DNA of 58,392 nucleotides from Patescibacteria group bacterium. Its GTDB lineage: Bacteria > Patescibacteriota > Microgenomatia > UBA1400 > PJMF01. The stretch covers positions 1 through 58,392 of the forward strand of contig JACFOI010000006.1 of assembly GCA_019454415.1 (NCBI GenBank). The letters are read 5' to 3'. The notes below the pieces were generated by a model. It had not been told where the DNA came from, searched no databases, and worked only from the letters and a program-made list of their open reading frames with translations. The translations under genes were made by a program, and so were the position numbers. Below, one piece after another: positions 1-39,581 of the stretch (positions are counted from its first letter, which is position 1; each line of letters begins with the position of its first letter).

Positions 1-76
1 ATATCGATTAGACGCACAGATTGACTCGGTGTACTTTGAGATCTACAGAAGTAGAAATTAGGTATATCGATTAGAC
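1..76 (-). CRISPR. Leader-proximal end of a type V-A CRISPR array: full repeat at 41-76, 27-nt spacer at 14-40, first 13 nt of the next repeat at 1-13. The array continues beyond the window edge.
   Basis: The minus-strand repeat reads GTCTAATCGATATACCTAATTTCTACTTCTGTAGAT (36 nt). Positions 1-13 match 64-76 at 13 of 13 bases. The 3' end AATTTCTACT-TCT-GTAGAT, with hairpin TCTAC/GTAGA, is the conserved Cas12a crRNA handle. The array lies directly downstream of cas2 on the same strand. Confidence 0.85.
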
Positions 77-249
77 AGTTTGAAGATTGATGTACCAAGC
101 TAAAAAGATACAAGTGATTTTTTGTTCTTCACGACTTTTTAGCCTGGTACTACCTAATTCAGTTTGCATAAAGACTGAGGTTTTCTTCTAATTGGTACAC
201 TTTAATTTCCACCTAGGTTCTTAAATGATCATAACGAACTGTTAATGTA
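77..249 (-). promoter_or_regulatory. Putative CRISPR leader: AT-rich non-coding stretch between cas2 and the first repeat
   Basis: 173 nt with no ORF and a low-GC appearance, located between the cas2 stop (250) and the first repeat (76). No promoter was mapped. Confidence 0.5.
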
Positions 250-531
250 CTAGGAAAAGACCACCACATCTTTTTCCTCGTTCTGGGCACAGCCATAACG
301 GATCGTTTTTTTCTTATCACCTTCGCAGATTGACCAGATCACCACACTATCTGCTGCTTCGAACTTCTTCTTATATTTCGATTCTATCTCGTTTAAGACA
401 TTCTGCAAGATCCGTGGGCTATTATGGATCTCATAGACTGAGTACTGCAGTTTACGACCAAATTTGTTTAAAAATTTGGAGAGTTTTGTCCTTGTCTTAT
501 CATTGCTGATGTCATAGGAAACTAAAATCAT
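250..531 (-). CDS. cas2: CRISPR-associated endoribonuclease Cas2
   Basis: 93 aa. The N-terminus MILVSYDISNDKTRTKLSKFLNKFGRKLQYSVYE is the typical Cas2 ferredoxin-fold start. A Shine-Dalgarno (SD) AAGGAGG precedes the ATG at 531. It is adjacent to cas1. Confidence 0.9.
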   Translation of the reverse strand: MILVSYDISNDKTRTKLSKFLNKFGRKLQYSVYEIHNSPRILQNVLNEIESKYKKKFEAADSVVIWSICEGDKKKTIRYGCAQNEEKDVVVFS

Positions 532-544
532 TCTCCTCCTTTAG

Positions 545-1513
545 TTACCCAAACTGATAGTAAGGAAATGCGTGCTTAGATGGATCCATAACATGTCTAT
601 AAAAACCCTGAATGTATGTGAAAATTTCCTCTTTCCGGTCCATCAGGCACTGCATGAAGATAGTGGCATACTCAGCTCTTTTGGCTGGAGCAAATTCGAA
701 TGAACCATTTTTAAAAATGAAGTCGGTTTCTTTAATTTGTCCAAGGTTGTGTGATTTAACAATTTGTTTATCAATGATGCAGCGAAATGGTTCTACCAGG
801 TCACAGGCCAATGACTTTCTTTGAAAAAAGAGTTGATGATAGAATCCTTTGTAGGTGTCGAAGCCATGGAGGCGAAGAATAGCATCAACGAGGTGGAATA
901 GAAAAGTGTAGCCCATGTCCATCAGCAGATTAGTGATATCCTCCCTTGTTCTGGGAGCACGGCGACGCCACTTCATATCCCGGAACTGCTCTGAAAAATA
1001 ATAACGTGAGATAGTTCCCTCAAGACCTAATAGACTTTCTAAACTATCAGCAGTTGTAGCTTCTCTCTTCCAGCCCTCTATTTTCTGACATAAATCCCTA
1101 TTTTTCTTAATATTTTTTTTGAGTTTCAGAAGTGCCATCTGATTTTCTACTTTGTTAACTATTAACGGTCTAGCCATCGACAACTGATGCTCAGGGGAAA
1201 GGCTATACTGCTTTTCTCGTAGCAGATAGTGGCCTTCAGCAGCTGCCGACAAGTCGGCATACATTTCAAAATTATGCTTGAGTAAAAAGACTGATACACC
1301 ATGCTCCTTCGTCTTACGTAGAAAGCTGGTGGTGAGTGATAGGTCCCCACAGATAAAAACCGCAAAGACCCTTTGTAAGGAAACGCGATTTATTACTTTT
1401 TTTTCTTTTTCAAATACGATGTTATCGTTGTAAATACGAAGAGAGCTTGGCTTTCCCCATTCCGCTTGAACAAAGAGAAGTTGTTTTTCTTGAAAATCTG
1501 GAAGCGACAGCAT
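545..1513 (-). CDS. cas1: CRISPR-associated integrase Cas1
   Basis: 322 aa, a Cas1-like length and sequence, flanked by cas4 and cas2. ATG at 1513. Confidence 0.88.
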   Translation of the reverse strand: MLSLPDFQEKQLLFVQAEWGKPSSLRIYNDNIVFEKEKKVINRVSLQRVFAVFICGDLSLTTSFLRKTKEHGVSVFLLKHNFEMYADLSAAAEGHYLLREKQYSLSPEHQLSMARPLIVNKVENQMALLKLKKNIKKNRDLCQKIEGWKREATTADSLESLLGLEGTISRYYFSEQFRDMKWRRRAPRTREDITNLLMDMGYTFLFHLVDAILRLHGFDTYKGFYHQLFFQRKSLACDLVEPFRCIIDKQIVKSHNLGQIKETDFIFKNGSFEFAPAKRAEYATIFMQCLMDRKEEIFTYIQGFYRHVMDPSKHAFPYYQFG

Positions 1514-1520
1514 ACATGCC

Positions 1521-2075
1521 TTAAAAACTTAAATGACGATAAATGCTGAGTTCACACCGCAAATCAGTTGGTTGAGGCTGTCGGGGATCATAGTGCCTCA
1601 TGGCGTAGAGCGTTTGCTCAAAGTCTTTGATTTCGGACGGTGTTGGTAAACTAATCTGGTATCTCTTGTTATCTTGAAGAGAATGAATCGCTAGTTTTTT
1701 GACCTGATAGCCCATCTCCTGCAAACAGAACATTTGCGCATATAGTTGGTACTTATGGCCTGTCTGTAAGGTCTTCAGCTTTGTTTTTCTCTCGATCAAA
1801 GTGGAAGTGTTCTGGTCATAAATATCAATCTTACCGCCGATGTTGTACTTAGTGCTGTAGACGGCCATACCCTGTAGATACCGTTTGGCAGTAGAGTACG
1901 TATGCTCTTCAATATTCTGATGGGTAAGTTTACCCACGACCTGGGGTGTTTCGTGGTACGTCTTCTGGTCGAACGTTTCGTAGACACTATGGAGATACAG
2001 CGACTTGGGGCTGTAGAGAAAATCATTGATCTTCGAGATCTGGATGAAAGGCTCCATAGGACGCGGATTATACAC
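1521..2075 (-). CDS. cas4: Cas4 (RecB-like PD-(D/E)xK nuclease); three of the four expected Fe-S cysteines are Ser
   Basis: 184 aa. Nuclease motifs are IDIYD (D84/D87), IERK (E95, K97) and QLYAQ. The N-terminal YSPK replaces the usual YCPR. The C-terminal C174-x2-S177-x5-S183 replaces CX2CX5C. The start is GTG at 2075 with AGGA upstream; an alternative ATG lies at 2057. Confidence 0.8.
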   Translation of the reverse strand: MYNPRPMEPFIQISKINDFLYSPKSLYLHSVYETFDQKTYHETPQVVGKLTHQNIEEHTYSTAKRYLQGMAVYSTKYNIGGKIDIYDQNTSTLIERKTKLKTLQTGHKYQLYAQMFCLQEMGYQVKKLAIHSLQDNKRYQISLPTPSEIKDFEQTLYAMRHYDPRQPQPTDLRCELSIYRHLSF

Positions 2076-2145
2076 TATTTCGTCCTATATTTCAATATTA
2101 GGGGATTTTATTTATTTCGACTTCCCCGAAAAGGTAACCATTTTG

Positions 2146-5100
2146 TCAACGGCTAGCTGTTTTTTGTGTAAATTTATCCCAGTCAAATTTTGAAATGAAT
2201 AAGTCTGGTTTTTCTGACTTTGCGACACGTTCAAGTAAAAGAATACCCTTGCGCGCGATATTGTACGCACCATTTGCATCGCCGTTGAACTCAGCAATAA
2301 ATCTTTCCTTGTCTTCAATCTTGCCAATAAATTTGGCTTCCAACCCTGCCAAGTTTACAAACCCCTCAGTATATTTGCCTCCATCAGTGCAGAAGAATGG
2401 TTTAACCGGGGAGGCCAAGAAGTCTACCCCGTCAATTGTTTCTATAACATTCCCATTTGTATCCTTCTTATACTGGGTAGTAGTAGAATTTCGCACTTGA
2501 AGTGTGAGATTGAAAAGGTAAATAAAACTCTGCCAGAAATTTCTGTTCTTACCGTCAAATTCCTTTGTTCCATTTAACCGTCCCTCAACCAGCATCTGGA
2601 AGATTTGATCCTTAATATCTCCAGCATGGATATTATCAAATCCCCACCGACTGAAGAGTTCCAGGAATTTATCATTTGGGTTTACCGCTATAGTTTCCCA
2701 ATAACCGTTTCGATTTTCCCTTTTAATACGTGGAACCTTTGCATAGACTGTCCATGGTGTAGAGAAGGTATTGTCCTTGAATTTTCCATCGACAAAATTG
2801 AGAGGATTATATTTAAAATAATAGCTCTGTATTGCATCATCCCAACCAATCTCATCCATCTTCTTAATAAACTTTTTAATTTTTTCAACTGTTTCAGAAT
2901 TACCGATATAGATATTTTTTCTAAAACCGCTCACTGGATCAGTTTGTGAGGTATATTCTGCCTGTGTGTAAAAAAGCACTCCAGTTTGCTTACCTATATC
3001 TCTAAACGTCTCAAACGGAGCAGTCAACTGATATGCCCGCAAAACGTGTCCTGCTTTAGTTGGATCAATCTCTTTTTTATTAACAAGAAAGTTTAATTTA
3101 TCAATAAGAGCTTTCTCGAGTTGTTGATAGATACTTTTCTCAATTCCGCCTCGCACTTGCTTGAAACGCATATTCAGATCTTCAAGGACAACAATGGCAT
3201 TGTACTTAATGACGAGGTCAGCAATATCGTGTACGACATGTGAGATATACCCCTTCTTTAAGTCTTTTATCTGCTCGACACTTTTCCAATCACGTCGTGC
3301 TTTTTCGCGATTCTTCGCTCGGTCCTCAAGCAAGCTAGCATAATTGATTTTATTTATCTTATTCAGTGATCGAATTTCAAGAATCTCTCCTTGCTGATTA
3401 ATGACAGAAAGATATGCTAAATGTTTTTCACCGCGATCGATGCCAATGATATTTATTTCAGGATTATTAGCCAGGAACCTATTGATCGACTGATTAAATT
3501 TTTGTGCATCAGAAGCAGTGCGATTTAGAGTGATCGGCACATGGAAAAACATTTTGTTCTTCGCATACCGCTTATTCTTGGTGACTAATTTCCCTTTACT
3601 GTCATGTCGCGTCCCTAGCTTTTCTTCGCTGGTTGCTGGTCGGAAAAACAGTTCGGCTTCCCCATTTAATTTAACTACAAAATTACTCTTCGCATTTTCT
3701 TCAGAAAAAACTTGCTCAAAGCAAAGCGTATGCGTATTTTTTAATCCAGTTTTCTTTGCACCATCTTTGAGATTCCAGTCTTTATTATGAATTTCAAAGA
3801 GATACAATTTACCCTCTTTGTTTGCCTCTTCTATGTACTCTTCAGAAACATATTCAAAGTCAATCAGATACCCACTTTCGGCCACATCACGATAGAACTC
3901 ACCAATGTTGTCGGTATATGCTTTTGTCTCCTTTACCTTGTTAAAATTGTATACTCTCCAGCCTTTATATGTTTTTAATGCGACTTTGTAGAAATCAATC
4001 AAGCGGTGCATAGACGACAGAGAGAATGTATCGCCTTTCTTGAACTCGCCATTTCTATATATTCTAAGTATTTCCTCCTCAGGTTCAAAAAATTTAAGTC
4101 CTTTTTGGGAAAAACATACCTTAGGCATCATCTTAGCTGGGTCAGGAAATAACTTATAAACCATTTTTTGATAACCCGATGTCGATACCGGAAATTTTTT
4201 AAAGAGAGTATTATTCTTTTTATCCATCACACCAAGATAATACTTATCATCCTTGCGTAATATTACCGAGGTGTTATCTACTTCTTTATTCTTATCCCAG
4301 CCATCAGCTAGAGTGGGGTTTTCAAAATTCAACTTCCACTTGTCTTGATTAAATGGTTTTTTGCTCAGATAGTTACGAACCTTGTCATATACTTTAAAAA
4401 TTTTCTCATGGCTGTCTGTATAGAATTGTTCGTACTCAATGTAGAAATCATCAGTTTCCAAGCCATCAGGATTCCATTGTCTAGATTTATCCAGGGAAAA
4501 GTACTTGGCAAGTCGATAGATATTCAAAACTCTATCCGCAAAGTTTTTTATAATTTCTGTAGAGTTCTGACTGTGTTCAAAAGTATCATGAGCAAGGAGC
4601 TGCTGGATGTCATTCACTAAATCATCTAGGGGTTTACCTTCTTTTTTATGCCCATTGAGTTTGAGGTCGACATATTCATGATGAAAAACAAAAAGGAATT
4701 GTTGCCAGGGAGTAAGATTTTCTAATTCTGGATTGTTTTCGTAGTAGTGATCTTTCCAGATTTTTTCTCGCTCTTCAGAATCACCTTCGACCAATGTTTC
4801 TACCGCACTTTTAATAATGTCCCAACCGACAAAGGCAGGAAATCTGTATTCTTCGCTTTTGAAGTCAAACTTAACATTTCGGTCGCCTTTCTCTTGAAAG
4901 GCCGAGATAAGAGCGTTTGATATTTTTTCGTAATTGGCAAACCACCGCCTGGTGATAGTATTGATTGCTTCCTTACGGAAATAAAGGCCAGCAAGATTGC
5001 CTTGTCTCTCAACAAGAGAGGCCACACTTTTATCGAAAACATTGATCTTTTCTTTGGCAGTTGATACAAACTTGATGAGTTGCTGTCTCAATTGCTCATC

Positions 5101-6036
5101 AGTCTCTATAAAATCCAAAAAATCTTCTTTATCACTGCCGATCTGCTTATCCAATTTCTTGAGACGAGATAACTTGTCTCCGGTCCTTTGTTTGTACTCA
5201 TTGATATATTGATTAAGACCTTTAACCTTCTGATCTTTAGTGCCGCCTATAAGTAGGTTAAAAGCGTCGATTCCTTTTTGGGTAAGGCAGGTGGTGTAAT
5301 GCTCTAATCGCAATATTTGATCAAAGTCTACTTGCAATTCTTTCTCTAATTGGGATAGATCAATCTTTTCTTTTACAGATTTGAAAGCCGCGATGTTATC
5401 GCAGAATCTGCGCAAATTGTCGTTGACGATCCTTGTCGCCACAGCGGTAGCGGTACCGTCACTTTTATAAAAATTTTTACGGGTTTCAAAAAACTTACCG
5501 AAGTATGCAGACCATTTATCCCAACTCTCAAAAATAGACTTGCCATCAACTCTTGCCTCTGGGTCACTGCCGTACTTTTGTTGCAATATAGAAAAGACCG
5601 CAGGTTCAAAAAGAAATTCGTGATTGCTTTTCTTTAGCTTTGTATTGTTGGAAAAGTCTTGAATCCACTGAGTGGCTTTTCTATCAAAAAAACTCGAAAC
5701 TTCTTTACGTATTTCTTGCTCTTTTGCCTTTAATTGATCTAGTTTTTCTTTATTATTTCGATCTGTTTTCCAAGAGGTATAGATATCGTCATAACCATTT
5801 AGGGATTGCAGGGTGACACCACTTAAGGATTCACTAATAAATTCTTGATGTAGCTTATCAATAAATGGTTTAGTCTTTTCGTATCTTTCTTTTCTATTCC
5901 AATCTATATCAATAATCTTATTTGCTATGAGCATTTCTTCCGTCTTACCCACAGGCTTCAGCTCAAACCGCAGTGTCTTGGACAGCACGTACTGTCTGGT
6001 AAATTGGTCAAAGATGGATGAGGTTGTATTAGTCAT
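2146..6036 (-). CDS. cas12a: Cas12a (Cpf1), type V-A single-subunit effector nuclease
   Basis: 1296 aa. The N-terminus is FTRQYVLSKTLRFELKPVGKT. RuvC-I is IGIDRGE (D867, codon 3436-3438), RuvC-II is VVLEDLN (E952) and RuvC-III is NGDANGAYNIA (D1253). The Nuc motif is TLQVRNS (R1182). LYLFEIHNKD and FFHVPITLN are WED/processing-region motifs. There is no HNH domain. SD GGAGAG precedes the ATG at 6036. Confidence 0.95.
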   Translation of the reverse strand: MTNTTSSIFDQFTRQYVLSKTLRFELKPVGKTEEMLIANKIIDIDWNRKERYEKTKPFIDKLHQEFISESLSGVTLQSLNGYDDIYTSWKTDRNNKEKLDQLKAKEQEIRKEVSSFFDRKATQWIQDFSNNTKLKKSNHEFLFEPAVFSILQQKYGSDPEARVDGKSIFESWDKWSAYFGKFFETRKNFYKSDGTATAVATRIVNDNLRRFCDNIAAFKSVKEKIDLSQLEKELQVDFDQILRLEHYTTCLTQKGIDAFNLLIGGTKDQKVKGLNQYINEYKQRTGDKLSRLKKLDKQIGSDKEDFLDFIETDEQLRQQLIKFVSTAKEKINVFDKSVASLVERQGNLAGLYFRKEAINTITRRWFANYEKISNALISAFQEKGDRNVKFDFKSEEYRFPAFVGWDIIKSAVETLVEGDSEEREKIWKDHYYENNPELENLTPWQQFLFVFHHEYVDLKLNGHKKEGKPLDDLVNDIQQLLAHDTFEHSQNSTEIIKNFADRVLNIYRLAKYFSLDKSRQWNPDGLETDDFYIEYEQFYTDSHEKIFKVYDKVRNYLSKKPFNQDKWKLNFENPTLADGWDKNKEVDNTSVILRKDDKYYLGVMDKKNNTLFKKFPVSTSGYQKMVYKLFPDPAKMMPKVCFSQKGLKFFEPEEEILRIYRNGEFKKGDTFSLSSMHRLIDFYKVALKTYKGWRVYNFNKVKETKAYTDNIGEFYRDVAESGYLIDFEYVSEEYIEEANKEGKLYLFEIHNKDWNLKDGAKKTGLKNTHTLCFEQVFSEENAKSNFVVKLNGEAELFFRPATSEEKLGTRHDSKGKLVTKNKRYAKNKMFFHVPITLNRTASDAQKFNQSINRFLANNPEINIIGIDRGEKHLAYLSVINQQGEILEIRSLNKINKINYASLLEDRAKNREKARRDWKSVEQIKDLKKGYISHVVHDIADLVIKYNAIVVLEDLNMRFKQVRGGIEKSIYQQLEKALIDKLNFLVNKKEIDPTKAGHVLRAYQLTAPFETFRDIGKQTGVLFYTQAEYTSQTDPVSGFRKNIYIGNSETVEKIKKFIKKMDEIGWDDAIQSYYFKYNPLNFVDGKFKDNTFSTPWTVYAKVPRIKRENRNGYWETIAVNPNDKFLELFSRWGFDNIHAGDIKDQIFQMLVEGRLNGTKEFDGKNRNFWQSFIYLFNLTLQVRNSTTTQYKKDTNGNVIETIDGVDFLASPVKPFFCTDGGKYTEGFVNLAGLEAKFIGKIEDKERFIAEFNGDANGAYNIARKGILLLERVAKSEKPDLFISKFDWDKFTQKTASR

Positions 6037-6060
6037 GCTCTCCTCTCAAGCCCTTAAATA

Positions 6061-6088
6061 CCAAAAAGGGGCGACGGCTTGTCGCCCA
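6061..6088 (-). terminator. Rho-independent terminator downstream of alaS and immediately upstream of cas12a
   Basis: The minus-strand RNA GGGCGAC-AAGCC-GUCGCCC forms a 7-bp GC-rich stem (6069-6075 with 6081-6087), followed by UUUUU (plus-strand A-run at 6063-6067). Confidence 0.75.
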
Positions 6089-6249
6089 ATAGAGGATTGC
6101 TTACCAAACGGTTAAGCGCTATCGGAACCGTCACCCCTTCTTGATTTTCAATCAGGGTCTGAACTCTCTCTATAGGCGACAACCCAAGTGTATCAGGAAG
6201 CTATTTACTGACAAGTAACTAAATAACTACAAGCCAAGAGGTCAGTTTT

Positions 6250-8118
6250 CTATACCAGCTGCATATACACGCGCCGCACTCCCGCCGAGGCTGACTGTTC
6301 CTTGGTCAACTTGATCGGTCCGATCTCGCCGGTTGACTTGACGTGTGGCCCGCCGCAGAACTCTTTGGAGATCCAGTCATGTTCCGGATCCTTGCCGATC
6401 GTATAGACCGACACCTGGTCGGGATACTTCTCGATAAAGAAGGCAATCGCGCCAGATCTGAGTGCGTCTTGCTTTTGCATCAGCTGCATCGTCACCGGCA
6501 GGTCTGCCTTAATCCAGTCGTTGACCAACTTCTCTACCTCCTGCTGTTGCTCGGTGGTCATGGGCGCATTATGGGAAAAATCAAAACGCAAACGCTCGCC
6601 GGTAATGTTTGAGCCTTTCTGCTGGACGTGGGTGCCGAGTACTTTACGAAGGGCCGCCTGGAGCAGGTGAGTTGCGGTGTGATATTTGGTTGTCACCTCA
6701 GAATGATCTGCTAAACCACCTTTGAACATCCCGGCCGAAGCTGAACGAGAGAGGTCTTTGTGTTTCTCAAACTCGGCTTTGAACTGGTCAACGTCTACCT
6801 GTTCGTGCTTTTGCTGTGCCATCTCGATCGTGATCTCTAACGGAAAGCCATAAGTCTGGTAAAGATCAAAGGCTACTTTGCCGTCAACCTTGTCCTGCTT
6901 TTCAAAGAAGCGCAGCCCCTTATCCAGTGACTTGCTGAACTTGGCTGCCTCTTCGGAAAGAACTCTGTCTATCAGATCTCGATCTACTCGACGATCAAAG
7001 TACACTCCATCATAGGTCTGCAGAACGCCTCGGTCGGCGATCGTAAACAGACTACTGGGATTCAGGCTGCCCCCCAGCTGATGCAGTTTGACGGTGGCGC
7101 GACGAATTAAGCGACGCAGGAAGTAGCCCTGAGTTTTGTTGGAAGGGACGACACCGTCTTTAATCAAGAAGACAGCAGCCTTCAAGTGATCGGCGATCAC
7201 CCGCATCTGAGTCTTGTGTTCTGCTTCGTACTTTTTGCCAGTGGTTTGTTCGATCTGCGCGATAATTTCGCTAAACAGCTCTGTCTCGAACACATCCCGT
7301 TTGTTGTTCTGGACGGCCAAGATCCGCTCTAGACCACCACCGAAGTCGACATTCTTCTGGGGCAGCTCTTTGAACGAGCCATCGTCTTGTTTCTGGTACT
7401 GCATGAAGACCGAGTTCCCGATCTCCAGGAAACGACCACAGTCACAGTTGACGTGACAGGGCTCGTTTTGGAATGGCGAGTTTTCGTGCAGCTTGAGCTC
7501 AGCACCAAAGTCAAAGAAAACTTCGCTGTCCGGGCCGCCAGGTTCGCCGGAAGGCATGTTGGCAGGTACGCCGGAACGGGACCACCAGTTTTTCTTTTCA
7601 CCATAGTAGAAGATCCGGCCGCCCTGGATGCCGTCACGCTCGGCATTGTCGACGTCTGTGGCTTCAATCCCGACTTCTTTAAACAGCTCTTTCCAGATCG
7701 CCACTGACTCTGTGTCACGCGGGATCCCCAACTCCTGACTGCCGCTAAAGACCGTCACAAACAGACGCTGCGGATCCAGACCAACTTCTTTGGTCAGAAA
7801 CTCGAAAAACCAACGTAGCTGCTCTTTCTTAAAGTAGTCCCCCAGCGACCAGTTTCCCAACATCTCGAAGAAGGTGGTGTGGCGGTTATCGCCAACTTCT
7901 TCAATATCCTGAGAGCGGAAACACTTTTGAGAGTCTGTGATCCGCGTACCTTTGGGATGCTTTTCTCCAAGGAGGTAGGGCACCATTGGCTGCATACCAG
8001 AGCCGGTAAATAAGGTCGTCGGGTCATTTTCAGGCACCAGCGGCGCCGACGGCACAATGGCATGGCCTTGCCGAGCAAAAAAATCGAGGTACTTTTGACG
8101 GAGCTGGTCCGGAGTCAT
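6250..8118 (-). CDS. alaS: Alanine--tRNA ligase, short form that ends after the editing domain
   Basis: The class II AlaRS N-terminus is MTPDQLRQKYLDFFARQGHAIVPSAPLVPENDPTTLFTGSGMQ. The editing-domain motifs HTATHLL and CGGPHV are present. I chose the ATG at 8118 (SD AAAAGGAAAAG) rather than the track start at 8220. Confidence 0.9.
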   Translation of the reverse strand: MTPDQLRQKYLDFFARQGHAIVPSAPLVPENDPTTLFTGSGMQPMVPYLLGEKHPKGTRITDSQKCFRSQDIEEVGDNRHTTFFEMLGNWSLGDYFKKEQLRWFFEFLTKEVGLDPQRLFVTVFSGSQELGIPRDTESVAIWKELFKEVGIEATDVDNAERDGIQGGRIFYYGEKKNWWSRSGVPANMPSGEPGGPDSEVFFDFGAELKLHENSPFQNEPCHVNCDCGRFLEIGNSVFMQYQKQDDGSFKELPQKNVDFGGGLERILAVQNNKRDVFETELFSEIIAQIEQTTGKKYEAEHKTQMRVIADHLKAAVFLIKDGVVPSNKTQGYFLRRLIRRATVKLHQLGGSLNPSSLFTIADRGVLQTYDGVYFDRRVDRDLIDRVLSEEAAKFSKSLDKGLRFFEKQDKVDGKVAFDLYQTYGFPLEITIEMAQQKHEQVDVDQFKAEFEKHKDLSRSASAGMFKGGLADHSEVTTKYHTATHLLQAALRKVLGTHVQQKGSNITGERLRFDFSHNAPMTTEQQQEVEKLVNDWIKADLPVTMQLMQKQDALRSGAIAFFIEKYPDQVSVYTIGKDPEHDWISKEFCGGPHVKSTGEIGPIKLTKEQSASAGVRRVYMQLV

Positions 8119-8231
8119 ACTTTTCCTTTTTTGGATAGATGGGAGTGTTTTTTGTGAGTCTTCGGGAACCACCGTTTCCTGGGGAACACTTTGGGCGGAC
8201 GACAACTCACAAAAAACCACGCCCTCGTATT

Positions 8232-8585
8232 TTACACGCCGCTGAACCGATTTCCCCTTTTTGCCCGCCGCGCCGACGTTTTCGCTGCCTTGCGCTGCTT
8301 GCTGGAGGTCATCAGCTCATCGGGAAGAGAAGCTTGAAACACTTCTTCAAACATATTTTGGAGGAATTGACGGATCGAAACTTGCTTATTAGGGAGGACA
8401 CCCTCTTTGACCATCTGATCTTTGGCGCCTTCCCACTCAGTGATCAACTGCTTGCGGACTTTGGCACCGCGCTCAGTAGCAAATAAAAAGTAGCCAGCTG
8501 CACCGGCGATCAACCCTAAACTAAAGCCAGCCACAAAACTACTTTGCTCAGGTGGGTATAGGGTGGAGTTACTATTCTCTGCCAT
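8232..8585 (-). CDS. YtxH-like membrane-associated protein
   Basis: 117 aa. An N-terminal Gly/Ala-rich helix FVAGFSLGLIAGAAGYFLFATERGAKVRKQL resembles YtxH. It overlaps the upstream gene by 14 nt. Confidence 0.6.
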   Translation of the reverse strand: MAENSNSTLYPPEQSSFVAGFSLGLIAGAAGYFLFATERGAKVRKQLITEWEGAKDQMVKEGVLPNKQVSIRQFLQNMFEEVFQASLPDELMTSSKQRKAAKTSARRAKRGNRFSGV

Positions 8586-8853
8586 CGTACTTATTGCGAT
8601 TTAGCCATCGAGTAAATGACTCAAAAACCTTTAGACCGGTTCCCAAACTGGAGGTGAGCCCACCCAGACTCTGAAGCGGCATGATAATCGAGTTAACTTT
8701 GAGCTCTGCCATATCAATCGCGTTGTTGACCTTGTCGAGGGTTCGTTTGACGCTCATCAACACCTGGATGACATAGACGCCGACGACCACCATCATCACA
8801 GTCAGAACTGAAACCGCGATGGTTAAAATTAAGGGAAGAATATCTGGATTCAT
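8572..8853 (-). CDS. Small membrane protein, DUF948-like
   Basis: 93 aa with a single N-terminal transmembrane (TM) helix followed by a coiled segment. Pairing with a YtxH-like gene is typical of this family. Confidence 0.5.
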   Translation of the reverse strand: MNPDILPLILTIAVSVLTVMMVVVGVYVIQVLMSVKRTLDKVNNAIDMAELKVNSIIMPLQSLGGLTSSLGTGLKVFESFTRWLNRNKYDGRE

Positions 8854-8868
8854 AGTGGGGTAACTATA

Positions 8869-9513
8869 TCATAGTTTGACTCTGATAATCCTCTGGATCA
8901 CGCTCTTTTTGCCGCGCCGATCCACTGATTCAATCGTAATAATATGGGTACCCTCTTTGGGCAGCAACACCTCGGTCTCAAAACGGCCATCAGGATAGAG
9001 AGAAACGGGCTGGGCGTTGACTGAAACGATGGCGTCAGGCAGCGTCTTGCCGGTTACTTTTACCCGCTCGCCCACTACCTGGTTTTCTTCCGGGGTGGTC
9101 AGATCAAGCAATGGTGGCTTCTGGAAGCTGTACCACTGGACTGCCACATAAGAGATGAGCGTCAGAAAAATTACGCCCAGAAAAAGAAAGGTCATGGTCA
9201 GCGGCGTCCAGATTTGTTGTTTCTTTAACACCGGACGAATAAACTCCCGCGGCACAAGCTTGCCACCAGCGCTCTCTTTGAAGTCGCGACGAAGCGTAGC
9301 GAGGAGCGGTAAGGGATCCTGACCGTAAAAGTCCGCTAAACTCTTGATGAACCCTTTGACAAAAGTGGCGGCAGGTAGTTTTTCAAACTGATTCTGTTCG
9401 AGTGCAGTCAGGTAGTTGGGCTGGATCTTGGTGGCGTCTACGACTTGGGCGATGGTTAAACCTCGTTTTTGTCGTTCCGTTGCCAGCAGCTCTCCAATCG
9501 TTTTTGTTTTCAC
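8869..9513 (-). CDS. RodZ-like helix-turn-helix (HTH) membrane protein
   Basis: 214 aa. An N-terminal XRE-type HTH (IGELLATERQKRGLTIAQVVDATKIQPNYLTALEQNQFEKLPAATFVKGFIKSLADFYG) is followed by a TM helix and an extracellular C-terminus. GTG start. Confidence 0.65.
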   Translation of the reverse strand: MKTKTIGELLATERQKRGLTIAQVVDATKIQPNYLTALEQNQFEKLPAATFVKGFIKSLADFYGQDPLPLLATLRRDFKESAGGKLVPREFIRPVLKKQQIWTPLTMTFLFLGVIFLTLISYVAVQWYSFQKPPLLDLTTPEENQVVGERVKVTGKTLPDAIVSVNAQPVSLYPDGRFETEVLLPKEGTHIITIESVDRRGKKSVIQRIIRVKL

Positions 9514-9567
9514 AGTGAACGTAGTGTAGGGGAGATCGTCTGCCTTGCCAAGTTCGCTCAGTCAGCT

Positions 9568-10005
9568 TTAGCTATTCATCAGCTTTTTGACCATGGCGGA
9601 AACAGAAGAGCCTTCTGCTTTCCCTTGAACTTTGGCCATAACAGCTCTCATGGTCTTGCCGAAGTCAGACTCACCCAGCTCAGACATCACTTCTTTAACC
9701 GTTTTTTCCAACTCTTCAGGGCTTAACTGGCTGGGAAGGTAGCGTTCAATGATCGAGACTTTCTTCTCTTCCTCTTCCACCAAGTCCTGACGACCACCAC
9801 GAGCAAACTCACTGATGGCGTCCCGCATCTGCTTGACCTCTTTGCTGATGATCTTGACGACATCCTCGTCAGTCGGAAGACCATGATCGATCTCCCAGTT
9901 TTTAATAGAAGACAGCAGGTAGCGAACAGTGTTTAAGGTCAACATGTCTTTCGCCCGCATGGCGTTTTTCATGTCTTCGGTAAGTTTGGCGCGCAGTTCT
10001 GACAT
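9568..10005 (-). CDS. GatB/YqeY domain protein
   Basis: MSELRAKLTEDMKNAMRAKDMLTLNTVRYLLSSIKNWEID matches the YqeY family. I chose the ATG at 10005; the track ORF extends upstream to 10179. Confidence 0.8.
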   Translation of the reverse strand: MSELRAKLTEDMKNAMRAKDMLTLNTVRYLLSSIKNWEIDHGLPTDEDVVKIISKEVKQMRDAISEFARGGRQDLVEEEEKKVSIIERYLPSQLSPEELEKTVKEVMSELGESDFGKTMRAVMAKVQGKAEGSSVSAMVKKLMNS

Positions 10006-10063
10006 AGAGTCCTTCTTGATTGATTTTCCCTGATGTGATTGTATCACTACGACAGCTCTTTCC

Positions 10064-11098
10064 GTGATGACAGACACCGCATCGACCCCACCAGCACCTA
10101 CCCCAACCAACTCCGCTAAAGTCCCGGCTACTCTTTTTAGCGGCTTTCTGGGCTCAGGCAAAACCACCATTATCGGCAATCTGATCGATGACCTCCAGAG
10201 TCAGGGTGTACAGATTGCATATATCAAGAACGAGGTGGGCACGGACACTGTGGATGAGGACATTGTCCGTGGCAAAAATATCCTGACGAAGGAGCTGCTC
10301 AACGGTTGCATCTGCTGTACTTTGGTCGGCAACTTTCACGCAGCCTTGACCGAAATTGTAGAGACGATTCATCCAGACCGGATCATTATCGAAGCGTCGG
10401 GCGTCAGTGATCCTACTGCGATTGCACTGACCCTGAATGCGCATCCTCTTATTTACCGTGACGGAATTATTACCATCATTGACGTGGTCAACTACAACGG
10501 CGTGCCTGTTTTTGACAAGGTAGCCCAACGTCAGGCCGAGTTCACTGATTTGATTATCTTTAATAAAGTCGAACAGGTCAGTGAAGATCGAAAACGACAA
10601 GTGGTCGGCTATGTGAGGGAAGTGAACACCAAAGCGCCGATCGTTGAGGCTCCTCACGGACACATCCACCCCAGTTTAGTCTTTGGCCTCTTCCCCAGTG
10701 ACATTGAAGGCCAGACAAAGATGTTAGAGCTAAAGAAGCGGGAAGTAGAGGAGCACCAACGGCTGCACCAAGCAGGCATCACGCATGATGAACACGGACA
10801 CTTGGAGGAAGATCACATCCAAACGTTCACGATCGAGACCGATGCTGCTTTTGACTCAGAAAGGTTGGTCAACGAACTCGCCCGTCTGCCCCAGCAGCTC
10901 TTCCGCGTCAAAGGTTTCCTGAATGTCAAGACAGCCGAGGGGTCAAAAATGATGATCGTCAACGGTGTGAACCAGCAGATTGCCCTGACTGATGTGCCGC
11001 CAAACTTCAAGGCAGAAAGTGGGAAGCTCGTCTGCATCGGTTTTCTGATTGATGAGCTGAAACCACTGGTTGAGGAGGCCTTGGTCAAAGCCAAATAA
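10064..11098 (+). CDS. COG0523-family (CobW/ZigA-like) GTPase metallochaperone
   Basis: P-loop GFLGSGKTT, CxCC motif GCICCTL, and a His-rich segment HQRLHQAGITHDEHGHLEEDH. GTG at 10064, ATG at 10067. Confidence 0.85.
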   Translation: MMTDTASTPPAPTPTNSAKVPATLFSGFLGSGKTTIIGNLIDDLQSQGVQIAYIKNEVGTDTVDEDIVRGKNILTKELLNGCICCTLVGNFHAALTEIVETIHPDRIIIEASGVSDPTAIALTLNAHPLIYRDGIITIIDVVNYNGVPVFDKVAQRQAEFTDLIIFNKVEQVSEDRKRQVVGYVREVNTKAPIVEAPHGHIHPSLVFGLFPSDIEGQTKMLELKKREVEEHQRLHQAGITHDEHGHLEEDHIQTFTIETDAAFDSERLVNELARLPQQLFRVKGFLNVKTAEGSKMMIVNGVNQQIALTDVPPNFKAESGKLVCIGFLIDELKPLVEEALVKAK

Positions 11099-11125
11099 GA
11101 ATAGTAACGTCAACGGAAAGTGTCC

Positions 11126-11425
11126 ATGACAAAGTACAAACAATACTTTCAAGAAATGTCTGATCAAAATGAGGAGCTATTCAAGTCCTTTGATCGGGTT
11201 CATGCTGGCTATTTGACAGACCGCAAAGCCTGGAGCGCCAAGTTTCACTTCGTTGGTCAACAAGTGGTCGACATCATCCGCGAGTGGGAGCAGCGGCTGT
11301 GTTCTGGGATGGAGCGCGGCGCCAACGGTGTCTACTCAATGAAGTTGGCTGATAAGTTCTGGAGTGAAGTCAAGAAACGCTACTCCCACATCGAGTTGGT
11401 GGGGGTACGATCCAACTTAGACTAA
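11126..11425 (+). CDS. Hypothetical protein, about 99 aa
   Basis: ORF with SD GGAAAG 5 nt before the ATG at 11126. It sits between the COG0523 and Fur-family genes. I recognised no family. Confidence 0.5.
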   Translation: MTKYKQYFQEMSDQNEELFKSFDRVHAGYLTDRKAWSAKFHFVGQQVVDIIREWEQRLCSGMERGANGVYSMKLADKFWSEVKKRYSHIELVGVRSNLD

Positions 11426-11448
11426 AAGATACGGGTATAATATCCCTA

Positions 11449-11883
11449 ATGCACGACGAACCCCTCGACGCAGCCTACTATCAAGATCTTCTTCGTGAGC
11501 ATGAGCTCAGTGTGACGCCGTTTCGCGTTAAACTGCTGAAGCTGCTCGCCAAACTATCCGTGCCACTCTCAGTCCAGAATATCGCGGCCAAGTTCGATGA
11601 AGCGGTAGATAAAGTCACCCTCTACCGAAATCTGGAGGCATTTGAGCATGCCGGGCTGGTCTGCCGTATGTACTTTAACGGCCAAGAAGCACTCTATGAA
11701 CAGCGATTTACTGATCATCACCACCATCACTTAATCTGCACCAACTGTGGTCGGATCGAGGACGTCGCGGGCTGCTCAATTGAAACACCACGGACGGGGA
11801 GTGGCTTCAAAATTAACCACCACCATCTCGAGTTTTACGGCTTATGTCACGAATGCCAGCTCAAAAAGCAAGGCATTATCTAG
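11449..11883 (+). CDS. Fur-family metalloregulator, likely Zur given the neighbouring genes
   Basis: 144 aa with a winged-helix N-terminus. It contains HHHHHLICTNCGRIEDV and HHHLEFYGLCHECQ (two CxxC pairs). TATAAT at 11436-11441 lies 7 nt before the ATG. Confidence 0.85.
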   Translation: MHDEPLDAAYYQDLLREHELSVTPFRVKLLKLLAKLSVPLSVQNIAAKFDEAVDKVTLYRNLEAFEHAGLVCRMYFNGQEALYEQRFTDHHHHHLICTNCGRIEDVAGCSIETPRTGSGFKINHHHLEFYGLCHECQLKKQGII

Positions 11884-11894
11884 CCGTTTTCTGT

Positions 11895-12536
11895 TTACTC
11901 CTGATTTCGGGGAATCAGCACGGAATCAATTACGTACACTACCCCATTACTCTGAGCAACATCTGGTGTCTCGATGCTGGCGTTATTTCCCTGAGAATCT
12001 GTCAACGTAACAATGCCATTGATCACGTTTATGGTGATCTGCTCACCTTGCAAAGTAGTCAGCTTCTGACCATTTCCCCCATCTTCCAGTGCTGAGAAGT
12101 GGTAAATACCAGGCACGACGTGATACTTCAGCACAGCCTGCAAGGCAGCACTGTTTGTCGGCTCGAGCCACTCAGACAAAGTGCCTGGTGGCAGCTTCTC
12201 AAATGCAGCATTTGTCGGGGCAAAAACGGTAAATGGTCCAGGAGTGTTAAGTGTTTCAGTTAAACCAGCTTGCTGGACTGCAGACATCAAACTGGTCAAG
12301 TTGGGGGCGTCAGCTGCGTTAACTGCAATCGGCCGAGAGGGCAGCATCATCGCTCCCCCGACGACGACTCCCTCTTCTGTCTGAGTGGAAGGGTTATCTA
12401 AAGAAGGATCCTCCACCGTTACCATTGAGGTTTCGGTTGGTGTCTGCGGAGGGTTCTGTGGCTGACAGCCGGAAAAGAGGAGTGCTACAGCAATAGCGCC
12501 TCCTATGATCATCTGGTTTTTTTTAATTGTAGGCAT
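11895..12536 (-). CDS. Fasciclin (FAS1) domain lipoprotein
   Basis: Lipobox LLFSGC. The FAS1 motifs are LMSAVQQAGLTETLNTPGPFTVFAPTNAAFEKLP and NGVVYVIDSVLIP. Confidence 0.85.
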   Translation of the reverse strand: MPTIKKNQMIIGGAIAVALLFSGCQPQNPPQTPTETSMVTVEDPSLDNPSTQTEEGVVVGGAMMLPSRPIAVNAADAPNLTSLMSAVQQAGLTETLNTPGPFTVFAPTNAAFEKLPPGTLSEWLEPTNSAALQAVLKYHVVPGIYHFSALEDGGNGQKLTTLQGEQITINVINGIVTLTDSQGNNASIETPDVAQSNGVVYVIDSVLIPRNQE

Positions 12537-12647
12537 GACGTCCTTTCTTGCCCTCCTTCGGCAATGCTTTTATAGTTAATCGTTTTTTAAAGAAAGATTC
12601 TTGACGCTTTTGTAAGAGTGCTGCAAGAAAACCGCTACTCTGCCGCA

Positions 12648-13679
12648 CTATCTCTCTTTTTCATGTTCCAGGATGCTTTGGGCAATCGGCTCCCCAAACT
12701 CTCTGAAACTAATAATAAACCCTGTATCGCCCGGGAACCGACCGATCACTCCTGCAAAGTATAAACCTGGTTGTTTCTTGGACTGATGATCCTGATCAAT
12801 GTCAACGTGATGCTCTCTGTCCTCCACAACCTCATCTACCAGACTCGCCACTGGCTCAATATTCAGTAAGAAACCGGTACAGATGATGGGTTTTTCCGGT
12901 GAGCTAAGTTGCTTTCCGTCTTCACTTTCTAGGTAGTACCTCTCGCCTTCTTTATAAATCCGTTTAACCCGGAAGTGTTCGACAATGTCAACCAATCCTT
13001 CTCTCTCCATATCCTGCACAAACTTCATATTCTCTTTCCACAGGCAATCAATCGGCATGGGAATCTGGTACTCACGAGAAACTACCAATGTCACTTTCCG
13101 GCCGGGTCGGGCCAGTTGCATGACTACGCCGCTGGCGCCATTGGCACTACCGACGACAGTAATCTCTTTAGCGTCTATATCATCAAGATAGGGCAGCTTT
13201 GCATAGTGGATGTAGCAGCCTTCCATATCCAGGTCTTCATTTGGGGTGTAGTACATGCCTGCTGCCCAAACAACATACTTACTCGTCAGGTATCCGTCGC
13301 CGCGGAGGTTCAGCACAAACTCTTCGCGTTCCGGATTAAAAAACACATTTTCAACCGTGGTGTTTTTCTTGACCGGGATCTTCTTTACCTGTGCGACATA
13401 ATCAAGATATTTTTGGTACATGAGATGACTTGGATGAGGAATGTTGGGGAAAACCTCTGAGGTGCGAACATTAGCAATCTCGTTATCATCCTTAGTCGGA
13501 GAACTTTCCGAAAGCAGATGTGTATCAGCCGGATAGTCCAGCCAAGCTTGTCCGACCTCACCACGGTCAACCACTAGGATATCTTCAGGATGAAAGCCAG
13601 CTTCAAGAAGGGCAGCTGCAACAGATAGACCACCTGGCCCGGCACCCACGATCACGACTGTGTAAAGATGATGTGACAT
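12648..13679 (-). CDS. FAD/NAD(P)-binding oxidoreductase (pyridine nucleotide-disulfide oxidoreductase-like)
   Basis: Rossmann motif VVIVGAGPGGLSVAAALLEAG and a second dinucleotide motif ITVVGSANGASG. ATG at 13679, with GTG at 13685 as an alternative. Confidence 0.75.
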   Translation of the reverse strand: MSHHLYTVVIVGAGPGGLSVAAALLEAGFHPEDILVVDRGEVGQAWLDYPADTHLLSESSPTKDDNEIANVRTSEVFPNIPHPSHLMYQKYLDYVAQVKKIPVKKNTTVENVFFNPEREEFVLNLRGDGYLTSKYVVWAAGMYYTPNEDLDMEGCYIHYAKLPYLDDIDAKEITVVGSANGASGVVMQLARPGRKVTLVVSREYQIPMPIDCLWKENMKFVQDMEREGLVDIVEHFRVKRIYKEGERYYLESEDGKQLSSPEKPIICTGFLLNIEPVASLVDEVVEDREHHVDIDQDHQSKKQPGLYFAGVIGRFPGDTGFIISFREFGEPIAQSILEHEKER

Positions 13680-13690
13680 ACTCACCCATC

Positions 13691-14278: not shown

Positions 14279-14314
14279 ATCTAGATCGTAAACAAAAAAG
14301 ACTTGGGAAGCAAG

Positions 14315-35514: not shown

Positions 35515-35521
35515 GCGCAGG

Positions 35522-36013: not shown

Positions 36014-36114
36014 ATTTGCATTGTAGACTACTTGACCCTCTAACTGCTAATTGAGCAAAACGCCGCTGGGCAGGTTTCCAAGCGGCGTTCCATAAGACGC
36101 TGTGACGGATCAAA

Positions 36115-39440: not shown

Positions 39441-39581
39441 AAAAGCCTCCCAAGTGGTATTGAGAGGCGATACCCTAAGTTTATACATCTTTCCTCTCGG
39501 TCGGAGGGAGCACCTTGATGCATCAACATCAGGTTGCTGAGTAGATCACTGAGCCGAATCTCTCCCTACTCTCTGGATGTA
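39441..39581 (-). promoter_or_regulatory. SAM-I (S-box) riboswitch: aptamer at 39484-39581, SD-sequestering/terminator hairpin at 39445-39468
   Basis: Read on the minus strand, P1 pairs UACAUC with GAUGUA. It is followed by CAGAG, AGUAGGGAGAGA...CUAC, GCAACC, P3 UGAUG-UUGAUG-CAUCA, AGGUGC, P4 CCUC-CGACCGA-GAGG and AAAGAUGU. Then GCCUCUC-(10 nt)-GGGAGGC is followed by UUUU and the AUG. It sits upstream of metK. Confidence 0.8.

What the first reader, a model, noticed from the sequence alone, without database searches (positions are those of the whole stretch)
1..6036. Complete single-effector type V-A (Cas12a/Cpf1) CRISPR-Cas locus: cas12a-cas4-cas1-cas2-leader-array, with no tracrRNA candidate
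- **Locus layout.** One 1296-aa protein carries all the hallmarks of a tracrRNA-independent class 2 effector. It is followed on the same strand by a full adaptation module and an array.
- **Effector motifs.** It has a split RuvC (D867, E952, D1253), the Nuc arginine in LQVRNS, no HNH domain, and the FTxxYxxSKTLRFELxPxGKT N-terminus.
- **Repeat.** The repeat ends in AAUUUCUACU-UCU-GUAGAU, which is the 5' handle of a self-processed Cas12a crRNA.
- **No tracrRNA.** I found no anti-repeat in either flanking intergenic region (2076-2145, 6037-6249).
- **Novelty.** This is the most distinctive biological system in the window. The class is now well described, but this ortholog is uncharacterised as far as the sequence can tell: its PAM, temperature range, collateral activity and genome source are unknown.
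Basis: partly seen in the sequence, partly recalled or inferred. Interest (0 to 1): 0.85.

Follow-up and report, generated by a model that had tools for sequence, protein, structure and literature searches.

The report
Ordinary Cas12a CRISPR locus, tiny array
This is a genuine, intact Cas12a (type V-A) CRISPR-Cas immune locus sitting on a recently acquired low-GC island in a small-genome Patescibacteria (CPR) bacterium; it is a new ortholog of a well-known system, and its array is cut off by the end of the contig.

Summary
On the minus strand the window carries cas12a (6036..2146, 1296 aa), cas4, cas1, cas2, a 173-nt leader, one complete 36-nt repeat (76..41), one 27-nt spacer (40..14) and the first 13 nt of a second repeat at the edge.

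- **Family:** curated HMMs place all four proteins in the type V-A families. The RuvC D867/E952/D1253 and Nuc R1182 residues are invariant across 49 relatives. There is no HNH domain and no anti-repeat anywhere in the 58 kb.
- **Array:** "complete" overstates it. The window appears to be the whole contig, so only 1⅓ repeats are visible. Conspecific contigs from other samples carry zero or one spacer, and the spacers differ.
- **Origin:** the 6.2-kb cassette is 38.6% GC against 49.3% for the rest. It is missing from the same alaS site in a conspecific strain and in a sister species, so it is a horizontally acquired, strain-variable island.
- **Open points:** the canonical pre-crRNA RNase residues (Fn H843/K869) are not conserved in this clade, this subclade's Cas4 has lost its Fe-S cysteines, and no protospacer was found.

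Verdict: new member of a known kind, of modest interest.

The parts
6037..6256 (-). Left end of the island: 213-nt region upstream of cas12a. It starts inside the last codons of alaS and contains a terminator-like hairpin (6087..6069) and a GGAG ribosome-binding site before the ATG.
   Evidence: Homology to the empty-site allele L043 ends at window 6257. The hairpin and promoter-like sites come, the sequence. No repeat-like or anti-repeat-like sequence is present.
2146..6036 (-). cas12a, 1296 aa. Key residues: RuvC D867/E952/D1253, Nuc R1182, PAM-reading lysines K584/K639, and a shortened WED RNase loop at 799-824.
   Evidence: TIGR04330 877 bits; Pfam REC1, PI-like, RuvC_1, NUC; PDB Cas12a matches; invariant residues.
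2067..2095 (-). Promoter-like site TTGAAA-17-TATAAT (11/12) between cas12a and cas4.
   Evidence: This is a consensus match only; function is inferred.
1521..2075 (-). cas4 (type V-A, PREFRAN type). The true start is probably the ATG at 2057. RecB motifs are kept, but 3 of the 4 Fe-S cysteines are lost.
   Evidence: TIGR04328 179.7 bits; alignment with eight V-A Cas4 relatives.
545..1513 (-). cas1 (type V), 322 aa.
   Evidence: TIGR04329 314.6 bits, cutoff 300; Pfam Cas_Cas1.
250..531 (-). cas2, 93 aa.
   Evidence: TIGR01573 and PF09827. An identical protein sits on 23+ contigs from many samples.
77..249 (-). Leader, 173 nt, 32% GC. It shares conserved blocks with the leader of the 69%-identical relative.
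41..76 (-). Repeat 1, 36 nt: GTCTAATCGATATACCTAATTTCTACTTCTGTAGAT, with a 3' stem-loop UCUAC-UUCU-GUAGA.
   Evidence: compared with the relative's repeat.
14..40 (-). Spacer 1 (leader-proximal), 27 nt: CTCAAAGTACACCGAGTCAATCTGTGC.
   Evidence: No self-match in the window and no viral match.
1..13 (-). First 13 nt of repeat 2 (GTCTAATCGATAT), cut by the contig end.

Best explanation
**What it is.** A bona fide class 2 type V-A CRISPR-Cas adaptive immune locus, carried on a ~6.2-kb horizontally acquired island. The island sits between alaS and a conserved 721-aa gene in a Patescibacteria (CPR) bacterium.

**Shown here**
- The gene order is cas12a-cas4-cas1-cas2-leader-array.
- The RuvC and Nuc catalytic residues are intact.
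- There is no HNH domain and no tracrRNA anti-repeat.
- The repeat carries the canonical Cas12a handle.
- All four ORFs are intact in six conspecific strains.
- Leader-proximal spacers differ between samples.
- The island is present in some strains and absent in others.

**Inferred from the family**
- The array is transcribed from the leader.
- Cas12a binds the repeat's 3' pseudoknot/stem-loop and trims the pre-crRNA upstream of AAUUUCUACUUCUGUAGAU.
- The resulting crRNA of about 42-46 nt guides recognition of a 5' T-rich PAM; the PAM lysines K584 and K639 are conserved.
- R-loop formation is followed by staggered cleavage of both DNA strands in the single RuvC site, helped by Nuc R1182. Collateral ssDNase activity is likely.
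- Cas4-Cas1-Cas2 select PAM-flanked prespacers and insert them next to the leader.

**Array state.** In this species the array is minimal, with zero to a few spacers. That fits a recently acquired, still nearly naive system.
For: - **Family assignment:** HMM membership above curated cutoffs for all four proteins. PDB matches are only to Cas12a.
- **Catalytic residues:** D867, E952, D1253 and R1182 are invariant in 49/49 relatives; K584 and K639 are present in 44/49.
- **Repeat:** it folds as the Cas12a handle and matches the 11-repeat array of the 69% relative at 31/36 positions.
- **No tracrRNA:** the best non-self complementarity in the 58 kb is 14 nt with G-U allowed, which is the level shuffles give. 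Rfam finds no tracrRNA.
- **Population data:** the cas ORFs are intact in five other conspecific contigs, with syn:nonsyn of about 1:1.
- **Arrays differ between samples:** the window has spacer A; L034 has a different 26-nt spacer plus a degenerate terminal repeat; L036 has a third spacer start; five contigs have a single repeat.
- **Island status:** GC is 38.6% against 49.3% for the rest. The site is empty in conspecific L043 and in sister species L044-46, and holds a different cargo in L047.
Against: - No expression, processing or cleavage data exist.
- Only 1⅓ repeats are visible.
- No protospacer was found for either known spacer or for two spacers of the closest relative, so the PAM and the targets are unverified.
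- The columns of the FnCas12a RNase residues H843 and K869 are not conserved in this clade, and the loop is about 15-17 aa shorter. The window's only His in that loop, H811, is unique to this species.
- Most conspecific contigs show a spacer-less single repeat, so in many cells the system would confer no immunity at present.
Confidence: 0.9

Rival explanations
1. The locus is intact but immunologically naive or idle. It arrived recently by horizontal transfer with a lone repeat, has captured at most one or a few spacers, and currently contributes little defence. It may be on its way to loss, as is common in CPR genomes.
For: - Five conspecific contigs from different samples run leader, one repeat, then trailer with no spacer.
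- The largest complete array seen has one spacer (L034).
- The island is absent in a conspecific strain.
- No spacer has a known target.
Against: - All four genes are intact in six strains, with an excess of synonymous changes over the roughly 1:3 expected for neutral change.
- At least three different leader-proximal spacers occur in different samples, which implies ongoing acquisition.
- Single-repeat contigs could partly reflect assembly simplification.
Confidence: 0.3
2. The effector works as Cas12a on DNA but matures its crRNA differently. Either it uses a rebuilt WED RNase centre with different catalytic residues, or a host RNase does the job, because the canonical His/Lys/Lys triad is not recognisable.
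For: - The loop between R799 and R823 is 15-17 aa shorter than in Fn, Lb2 and ReChb.
- The Fn H843 column holds T/K/E/Y and the K869 column holds N/K/D across 49 relatives.
- Several relatives have no His at all in the loop, and H811 occurs in only 2/49.
- The roles of the Fn residues are taken from PMC11127173.
Against: - Loop alignments of different lengths are unreliable.
- phmmer aligned H811 to the catalytic His of ReChb.
- R799, R823 and Y824 (the As R790 / F864 equivalents) are invariant or nearly invariant.
- The window protein does have H811, K814/K816 and K820 in the loop.
- The repeat keeps the canonical sequence around the expected cut site.
Confidence: 0.15
3. It is another type V subtype that needs a tracrRNA, or a nuclease-dead transposon-associated Cas12 (Cas12k-like).
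For: None beyond the general similarity of type V RuvC effectors.
Against: - The Cas12a-specific model scores far above cutoff.
- The catalytic D/E/D residues are intact.
- There is no anti-repeat.
- The island carries no Tn7-like or other transposase genes.
- There are no terminal repeats at the island ends.
Confidence: 0.01

Closest known systems
FnCas12a (Francisella novicida Cpf1; PDB 5NG6, 5NFV, 5MGA) and its type V-A locus
   Same: - Same domain set: REC1, PI, RuvC and Nuc.
- RuvC D/E/D and the Nuc Arg align: Fn D917/E1006/D1255/R1218 correspond to D867/E952/D1253/R1182.
- Same cas4-cas1-cas2 module (PREFRAN models).
- 36-nt repeat ending AAUUUCUACU-N-GUAGAU, and no tracrRNA.
   Different: - It is a distant ortholog (584 bits, gapped alignment).
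- The WED RNase loop is 15-17 aa shorter and lacks recognisable H843/K869 equivalents.
- The loop of the handle is UUCU rather than UGUU.
- Cas4 lacks the Fe-S cysteines.
ReChb (reconstructed ancestral Cas12a; PDB 8QWD)
   Same: It is the best solved-structure match (E=6.6e-202, aligned over residues 8-1186). It shares the LQ[MV]RNS and DANGAY motifs.
   Different: ReChb is a synthetic consensus-like protein, not a natural relative. It has the longer RNase loop with the His.
Cas12a loci of CPR/Patescibacteria MAGs, e.g. Roizmanbacteria GW2011_GWA2_37_7 (L008), Saccharibacteria MAGs (L005, L007), Uhrbacteria and Moranbacteria
   Same: Same clade by sequence (41-58% identity), same gene order, and the same repeat handle AATTTCTACTNNNGTAGAT in their arrays. 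The CPR occurrence was published in 2015 and 2019 (PMC6509639).
   Different: - The best match among representative genomes is only 58% identical.
- Those arrays hold 7 to more than 30 repeats, whereas this species shows 1-2 repeats.
Unnamed metagenomic relative P0002 (contigs L002-L004)
   Same: 69% identical Cas12a, with cas4-cas1-cas2 in the same order. Its repeat GTTTAATCGATATATTCAATTTCTACTTTTGTAGAT is 31/36 identical. It shares conserved leader blocks and a Cas4 lacking the Fe-S cysteines.
   Different: It sits in a different genomic site (after yceG), in a host with lower GC (40%), and has an 11-repeat array with 28-31-nt spacers.

Membership tests
Type V-A CRISPR-Cas (Cas12a/Cpf1) | Effector matches the curated Cas12a/Cpf1 model above its cutoff | tested here: met
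   TIGR04330 at 877 bits against a cutoff of 300. Pfam RuvC_1, REC1, Cpf1_PI-like and NUC are all above cutoff.
Type V-A CRISPR-Cas (Cas12a/Cpf1) | Single split RuvC nuclease with catalytic D, E, D, and no HNH domain | tested here: met
   D867, E952 and D1253 align to the Fn IDRGE / EDLN / DANGAY motifs and are invariant in 49/49 relatives. Pfam finds no HNH.
Type V-A CRISPR-Cas (Cas12a/Cpf1) | Nuc domain with the conserved arginine (Fn R1218) | tested here: met
   R1182 in LQVRNS aligns to LQMRNS of ReChb and is invariant in 49/49.
Type V-A CRISPR-Cas (Cas12a/Cpf1) | Adaptation module cas4-cas1-cas2 downstream of the effector on the same strand | tested here: met
   TIGR04328 (179.7 bits; cutoff 70), TIGR04329 (314.6; cutoff 300) and TIGR01573 (49.6; cutoff 24.5).
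Type V-A CRISPR-Cas (Cas12a/Cpf1) | CRISPR array of ~36-nt repeats whose 3' end forms the UCUAC-loop-GUAGA handle | tested here: met
   One full repeat plus 13 nt of a second at 63-nt spacing. The stem-loop has an MFE of -4.8 kcal/mol. A conspecific contig shows repeat-spacer-repeat-trailer. The array length in this genome is unknown.
Type V-A CRISPR-Cas (Cas12a/Cpf1) | No tracrRNA (no anti-repeat near the locus) | tested here: met
   No match within 3 mismatches on either strand. The best G-U-tolerant duplex is 14 nt and lies 29 kb away, at chance level. The upstream region scores below shuffles. Rfam finds nothing.
Type V-A CRISPR-Cas (Cas12a/Cpf1) | WED-domain RNase residues for pre-crRNA self-processing (Fn H843, K852, K869) | tested here: inconclusive
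   The loop is 15-17 aa shorter. The H843 column corresponds to T809, and K869 corresponds to K820 but is not conserved in the clade. H811 is unique to this species. R799, R823 and Y824 are conserved. Residue roles are from PMC11127173.
Type V-A CRISPR-Cas (Cas12a/Cpf1) | PAM-reading lysines (As K548/K607; Fn K613/K671) that predict a 5' T-rich PAM | tested here: met
   K584 in GWDKNKE and K639 in KMMPKVCFS align to the Fn motifs and are present in 44/49 relatives. The As/Fn residue numbering is from my own knowledge.
Type V-A CRISPR-Cas (Cas12a/Cpf1) | T-rich PAM, staggered PAM-distal dsDNA cut, and collateral ssDNase activity | not testable with these tools
   No protospacer was found from which to read a PAM. 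Biochemistry is required.
Canonical Cas4 (RecB-like nuclease with a 4Fe-4S cluster) | Four cluster-ligating cysteines (N-terminal C, and C-terminal C-x2-C-x5-C) | tested here: not met
   The window, L002 and L005 have YSP in place of FCP and keep only the first C-terminal Cys. L007, L008, L009 and L012 keep all four. The RecB D / ExK / QxxxY motifs are retained. The protein still passes the V-A Cas4 model.

The most novel reading that the evidence does not exclude
This Patescibacteria-dominated clade of Cas12a, including this ortholog, may have rebuilt or lost the canonical His/Lys/Lys pre-crRNA RNase centre, and it is paired with a Cas4 that has dispensed with its Fe-S cluster. crRNA maturation, and perhaps prespacer trimming, would then proceed by chemistry or partners different from the Fn/As/Lb paradigm. 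Separately, the cassette is a strain-variable island whose right boundary coincides, to within a few bases (the shared T-run makes the junction ambiguous), with the 3' end of the terminal repeat. It is caught in a near-naive, single-repeat state acquiring its first spacers.
Probability: 0.15. Interest if true: 0.5.

Novelty: new member of a known kind. Interest (0 to 1): 0.3.

Why it matters
As a CRISPR system it adds one more uncharacterised Cas12a ortholog. It is 69% identical to its nearest non-conspecific relative and 58% to the nearest representative genome. That is useful only if its PAM, temperature range or size properties turn out to be favourable.

The biological interest is modest but real. 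It documents a whole type V-A cassette as a presence/absence polymorphism at a defined hot spot within one CPR species, with arrays of zero to one spacer that differ between samples. This is a natural snapshot of the acquisition and first use of CRISPR immunity in bacteria that rarely carry CRISPR.

The non-conserved RNase residues and the cysteine-less Cas4 are cheap, testable leads into how far the Cas12a paradigm generalises.

Tried and rejected
- **Exact look-ups.** The window's Cas12a and AlaS are not on record as exact sequences. Near-identical cluster members were used instead.
- **Metagenome scan for the 3' 20-mer of the repeat.** It gave 17 loci, but 15 are unrelated single occurrences, mostly inside coding sequence. 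Only L020 and L032 are other Cas12a arrays, and none carries this repeat. The part of the array beyond the contig end could therefore not be recovered.
- **Protospacer searches in IMG/VR.** Six scans all returned zero: both spacers of this species at full length and as 21-mers, and two spacers of the closest relative. There is no self-target in the window.
- **Anti-repeat / tracrRNA.** Rejected.
- **Transposon-like mobility of the island.** There are no terminal direct or inverted repeats, no repeat remnant at the left end and no transposase or integrase ORF in the island. The insertion mechanism is left unexplained.
- **Second array elsewhere in the window.** None found.
- **Sample accessions.** A literature search for them gave no hits. 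A search for pre-crRNA processing by CPR Cas12a also gave none.
- **Structure prediction.** Not attempted. The protein exceeds the 1200-aa limit, and the tools return no residue-level superposition that could settle the RNase-site question.

Full report
**1. What is in the sequence.**

All features lie on the minus strand:
- cas12a 6036..2146 (1296 aa)
- cas4 2075..1521 (184 aa from a GTG; relatives start at the Met encoded at 2057)
- cas1 1513..545 (322 aa)
- cas2 531..250 (93 aa)

Reading the minus strand from 249 down to 1 gives:
- a 173-nt leader
- one complete 36-nt repeat GTCTAATCGATATACCTAATTTCTACTTCTGTAGAT (76..41)
- a 27-nt spacer CTCAAAGTACACCGAGTCAATCTGTGC (40..14)
- the first 13 nt of a second repeat (13..1)

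The full repeat occurs once in the window. That is why the repeat finders and TRF return nothing. A 13-nt exact restart of the repeat at 63-nt spacing is far beyond chance. An AlaS cluster member sits on an NCBI contig of exactly 58,392 nt, so the window appears to be the whole contig. The array is then cut by an assembly break rather than by the choice of window.

**2. Identity of the proteins.**

- **HMM matches.** NCBIfam gives TIGR04330 Cas12a/Cpf1 at 877 bits (cutoff 300), TIGR04328 type V Cas4 at 179.7 (cutoff 70), TIGR04329 type V Cas1 at 314.6 (cutoff 300) and TIGR01573 Cas2. Pfam gives REC1, Cpf1_PI-like, RuvC_1 and NUC, and no HNH.
- **Solved structures.** All matches are Cas12a: ReChb 8qwd at 6.6e-202, FnCas12a 5ng6 at 4.7e-174, and Lb, Lb2 and As.
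Counting gives D867 (IGIDRGE), E952 (VLEDLN), D1253 (NGDANGAY) and R1182 (LQVRNS). These align to the matching Fn, Lb2 and ReChb motifs. They correspond to Fn D917, E1006, D1255 and R1218, whose roles are summarised in PMC11127173.
- **Conservation.** In an alignment of 49 relatives all four residues are invariant. The two PAM-reading lysines, K584 in GWDKNKE and K639 in MMPKVCFS, are present in 44/49. The As/Fn numbering of those lysines is from my own knowledge.

**3. Repeat and tracrRNA.**

- The repeat folds as a 5-bp stem with a 4-nt loop at its 3' end (-4.8 kcal/mol). This is the Cas12a handle.
- The closest non-conspecific relative (P0002, 69% identical) has 11 copies of GTTTAATCGATATATTCAATTTCTACTTTTGTAGAT with 28-31-nt spacers downstream of its cas2. 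That repeat is 31/36 identical to this one.
- The two leaders share conserved blocks, which supports the orientation and the leader assignment.
- No anti-repeat exists. Nothing matches within 3 mismatches. The best G-U-tolerant contiguous duplex is 14 nt, lies 29 kb away, and occurs at the frequency seen in shuffles. The cas12a upstream region scores below the shuffled mean. Rfam reports only a SAM riboswitch in the window.

**4. What lies beyond the edge: population data.**

A 99.5%-identical Cas12a (1290/1296) sits on Logan contig L001. That contig is colinear with window 16036..41 at 99.4% identity and diverges exactly at the end of repeat 1. An exact-sequence look-up of Cas2 found 23+ contigs from about ten samples. 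Downstream of cas2 they show the following:
- Five contigs run leader, one repeat, trailer, then a 721-aa gene.
- L034 has a repeat, a different 26-nt spacer, a terminal repeat with a loop mutation (TTAT), then the trailer.
- L036 has a repeat followed by a third, different first base.
- Three further contigs break off before reaching a spacer: one in the leader (L037), one inside the repeat (L038) and one exactly at its end (L040).

Arrays in this species are therefore tiny, with zero or one spacer seen. Leader-proximal spacers differ between samples, and the degenerate repeat sits at the trailer end. This is the signature of a working adaptation module acting on a nearly naive array. Some single-repeat contigs could be assembly simplifications. 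However, the repeat-to-trailer junction k-mers must exist in the reads.

All four cas ORFs are intact in five other strains. Synonymous and non-synonymous changes are roughly equal, which suggests mild purifying selection on small counts.

**5. Genomic context and origin.**

- **Surroundings.** The rest of the window is ordinary chromosome: AlaRS, enolase, iPGM, metK behind a SAM riboswitch, PolX, topoisomerase IB and two-component systems.
- **Host.** AlaS relatives that carry a name are mostly 'Patescibacteria group bacterium', and the sister species sits on contigs of about 1.17-1.2 Mb. The host is therefore a CPR bacterium. The nearest Cas12a in representative genomes is from Saccharibacteria MAGs (58%). 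Because the locus is horizontally acquired, that is only a hint about the host.
- **GC contrast.** The island is 38.6% GC against 49.3% for the rest.
- **Empty sites.** In the sister species (AlaS 85% identical) alaS is followed directly by the 719-aa gene, sortase, ruvX, yceG and rpoBC. In conspecific contig L043 (96-98% nt identity) alaS is also followed directly by the 721-aa gene. There, 16 nt stand in place of 6,215 nt.
- **Boundaries.** The left boundary lies inside the last codons of alaS (window 6256). The right boundary coincides, to within a few bases, with the 3' end of the terminal repeat.
- **Alternative cargo.** A more distant relative (L047) carries a different 0.7-kb, 38%-GC insert at the same spot.

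The cassette is therefore strain-variable cargo at an integration hot spot. I found no terminal repeats, repeat remnant or recombinase gene that would explain the insertion.

**6. Mechanism.**

*Shown:* the parts list, intact DNA-cleavage residues, absence of tracrRNA and spacer turnover.

*Inferred from the family:* transcription from the leader; binding of the handle; 5' trimming of the pre-crRNA; recognition of a 5' T-rich PAM; R-loop formation; staggered cleavage in the single RuvC site; collateral ssDNase activity; and Cas4-assisted, PAM-aware spacer integration at the leader.

The WED loop that carries the FnCas12a RNase residues H843, K852 and K869 (PMC11127173) is 15-17 residues shorter here.
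- In a MAFFT alignment with the Fn, Lb2 and ReChb fragments, H843 falls on T809 and K869 on K820. Both columns are variable across the 49 relatives, and some relatives have no His in the loop at all.
- phmmer alternatively pairs the window's H811 with the ReChb catalytic His, but H811 is unique to this species.
- R799, R823 and Y824 are conserved.

Self-processing is therefore likely by homology but not verified by residues.

**7. Targets.**

Neither known spacer of this species, nor two spacers of the closest relative, has an exact match in IMG/VR. There is no self-target in the window. No PAM can be derived.

**8. Comparison and verdict.**

Cas12a loci in CPR bacteria have been known since the original 2015 description and were surveyed in 2019 (PMC6509639). 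Of the 266 relatives found at E<=1e-50, the 120 listed range from 37% to 69% identity apart from the conspecific protein. This locus meets every testable defining feature of type V-A except the RNase triad, which is inconclusive. It is a new member of a known kind.

'Complete' and the 0.85 interest score are not justified. The mildly interesting extras are the presence/absence polymorphism with near-naive arrays, the unrecognisable RNase centre, and a Cas4 subclade (window, L002, L005) that has lost three of its four Fe-S cysteines while keeping the RecB motifs.

Noticed in passing
window 6256 and the off-contig trailer; loci L043:2400-2480, L044:11860-11960, L047:10258-10977: The junction between alaS and the 721-aa gene is a variable hot spot. 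It is empty in a conspecific strain and in the sister species. In L047 it holds a 0.7-kb, 38%-GC insert encoding a 91-aa membrane protein. Here it holds the 6.2-kb CRISPR island. The island's right boundary coincides with the 3' end of the terminal repeat, and no mobility genes or terminal repeats were found.
   Followed up: partly
window 1521-2075 (-); L002, L005, L007-L013 Cas4 regions: The Cas4 of this subclade (window, L002, L005) has lost three of the four Fe-S cluster cysteines (FCP becomes YSP; C-x2-C-x5-C is reduced to one Cys), while the RecB nuclease motifs are retained. More distant V-A Cas4s keep all four.
   Followed up: partly
window 3565-3640 (-), Cas12a residues 799-824: The WED RNase loop is 15-17 aa shorter than in Fn, Lb2 and ReChb. 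The columns of Fn H843 and K869 are not conserved across 49 CPR-clade relatives, and several relatives have no His in the loop.
   Followed up: partly
window 2067-2095 (-): A near-consensus sigma-70-like promoter (TTGAAA-17-TATAAT, 11/12) lies between cas12a and cas4. Its -10 box ends 9 nt before the probable cas4 ATG (2057), which suggests a separate, almost leaderless adaptation-module transcript.
   Followed up: no
window 6069-6087 (-): A GC-rich hairpin followed by a T-run lies 33 nt upstream of the cas12a start, inside the island. It probably terminates alaS transcription, replacing the terminator that the insertion disrupted.
   Followed up: no
window 39482-39583 (-): A SAM-I riboswitch (RF00162, 51.4 bits) lies directly upstream of metK (ORF 38340-39488, S-AdoMet synthetase domains). 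This is an ordinary arrangement.
   Followed up: yes
window 21055-25500 (+): A 1481-aa protein carries three Laminin_G_3 domains, two F5/8 type C domains and a DUF2341 domain. It is likely a large surface or adhesion protein, of a kind typical of episymbiotic CPR bacteria.
   Followed up: no
window 34018-37692 (-) and 16841-18112 (-): Three large ORFs (498, 525 and 423 aa) have no Pfam match.
   Followed up: no
L016-L031 (metagenome hits): The 20-mer TAATTTCTACTTCTGTAGAT occurs as single copies inside unrelated sequence, mostly coding, in 15 metagenome loci. Only L020 and L032 are real Cas12a arrays. This is a caution against calling Cas12a repeats from the handle alone.
   Followed up: yes
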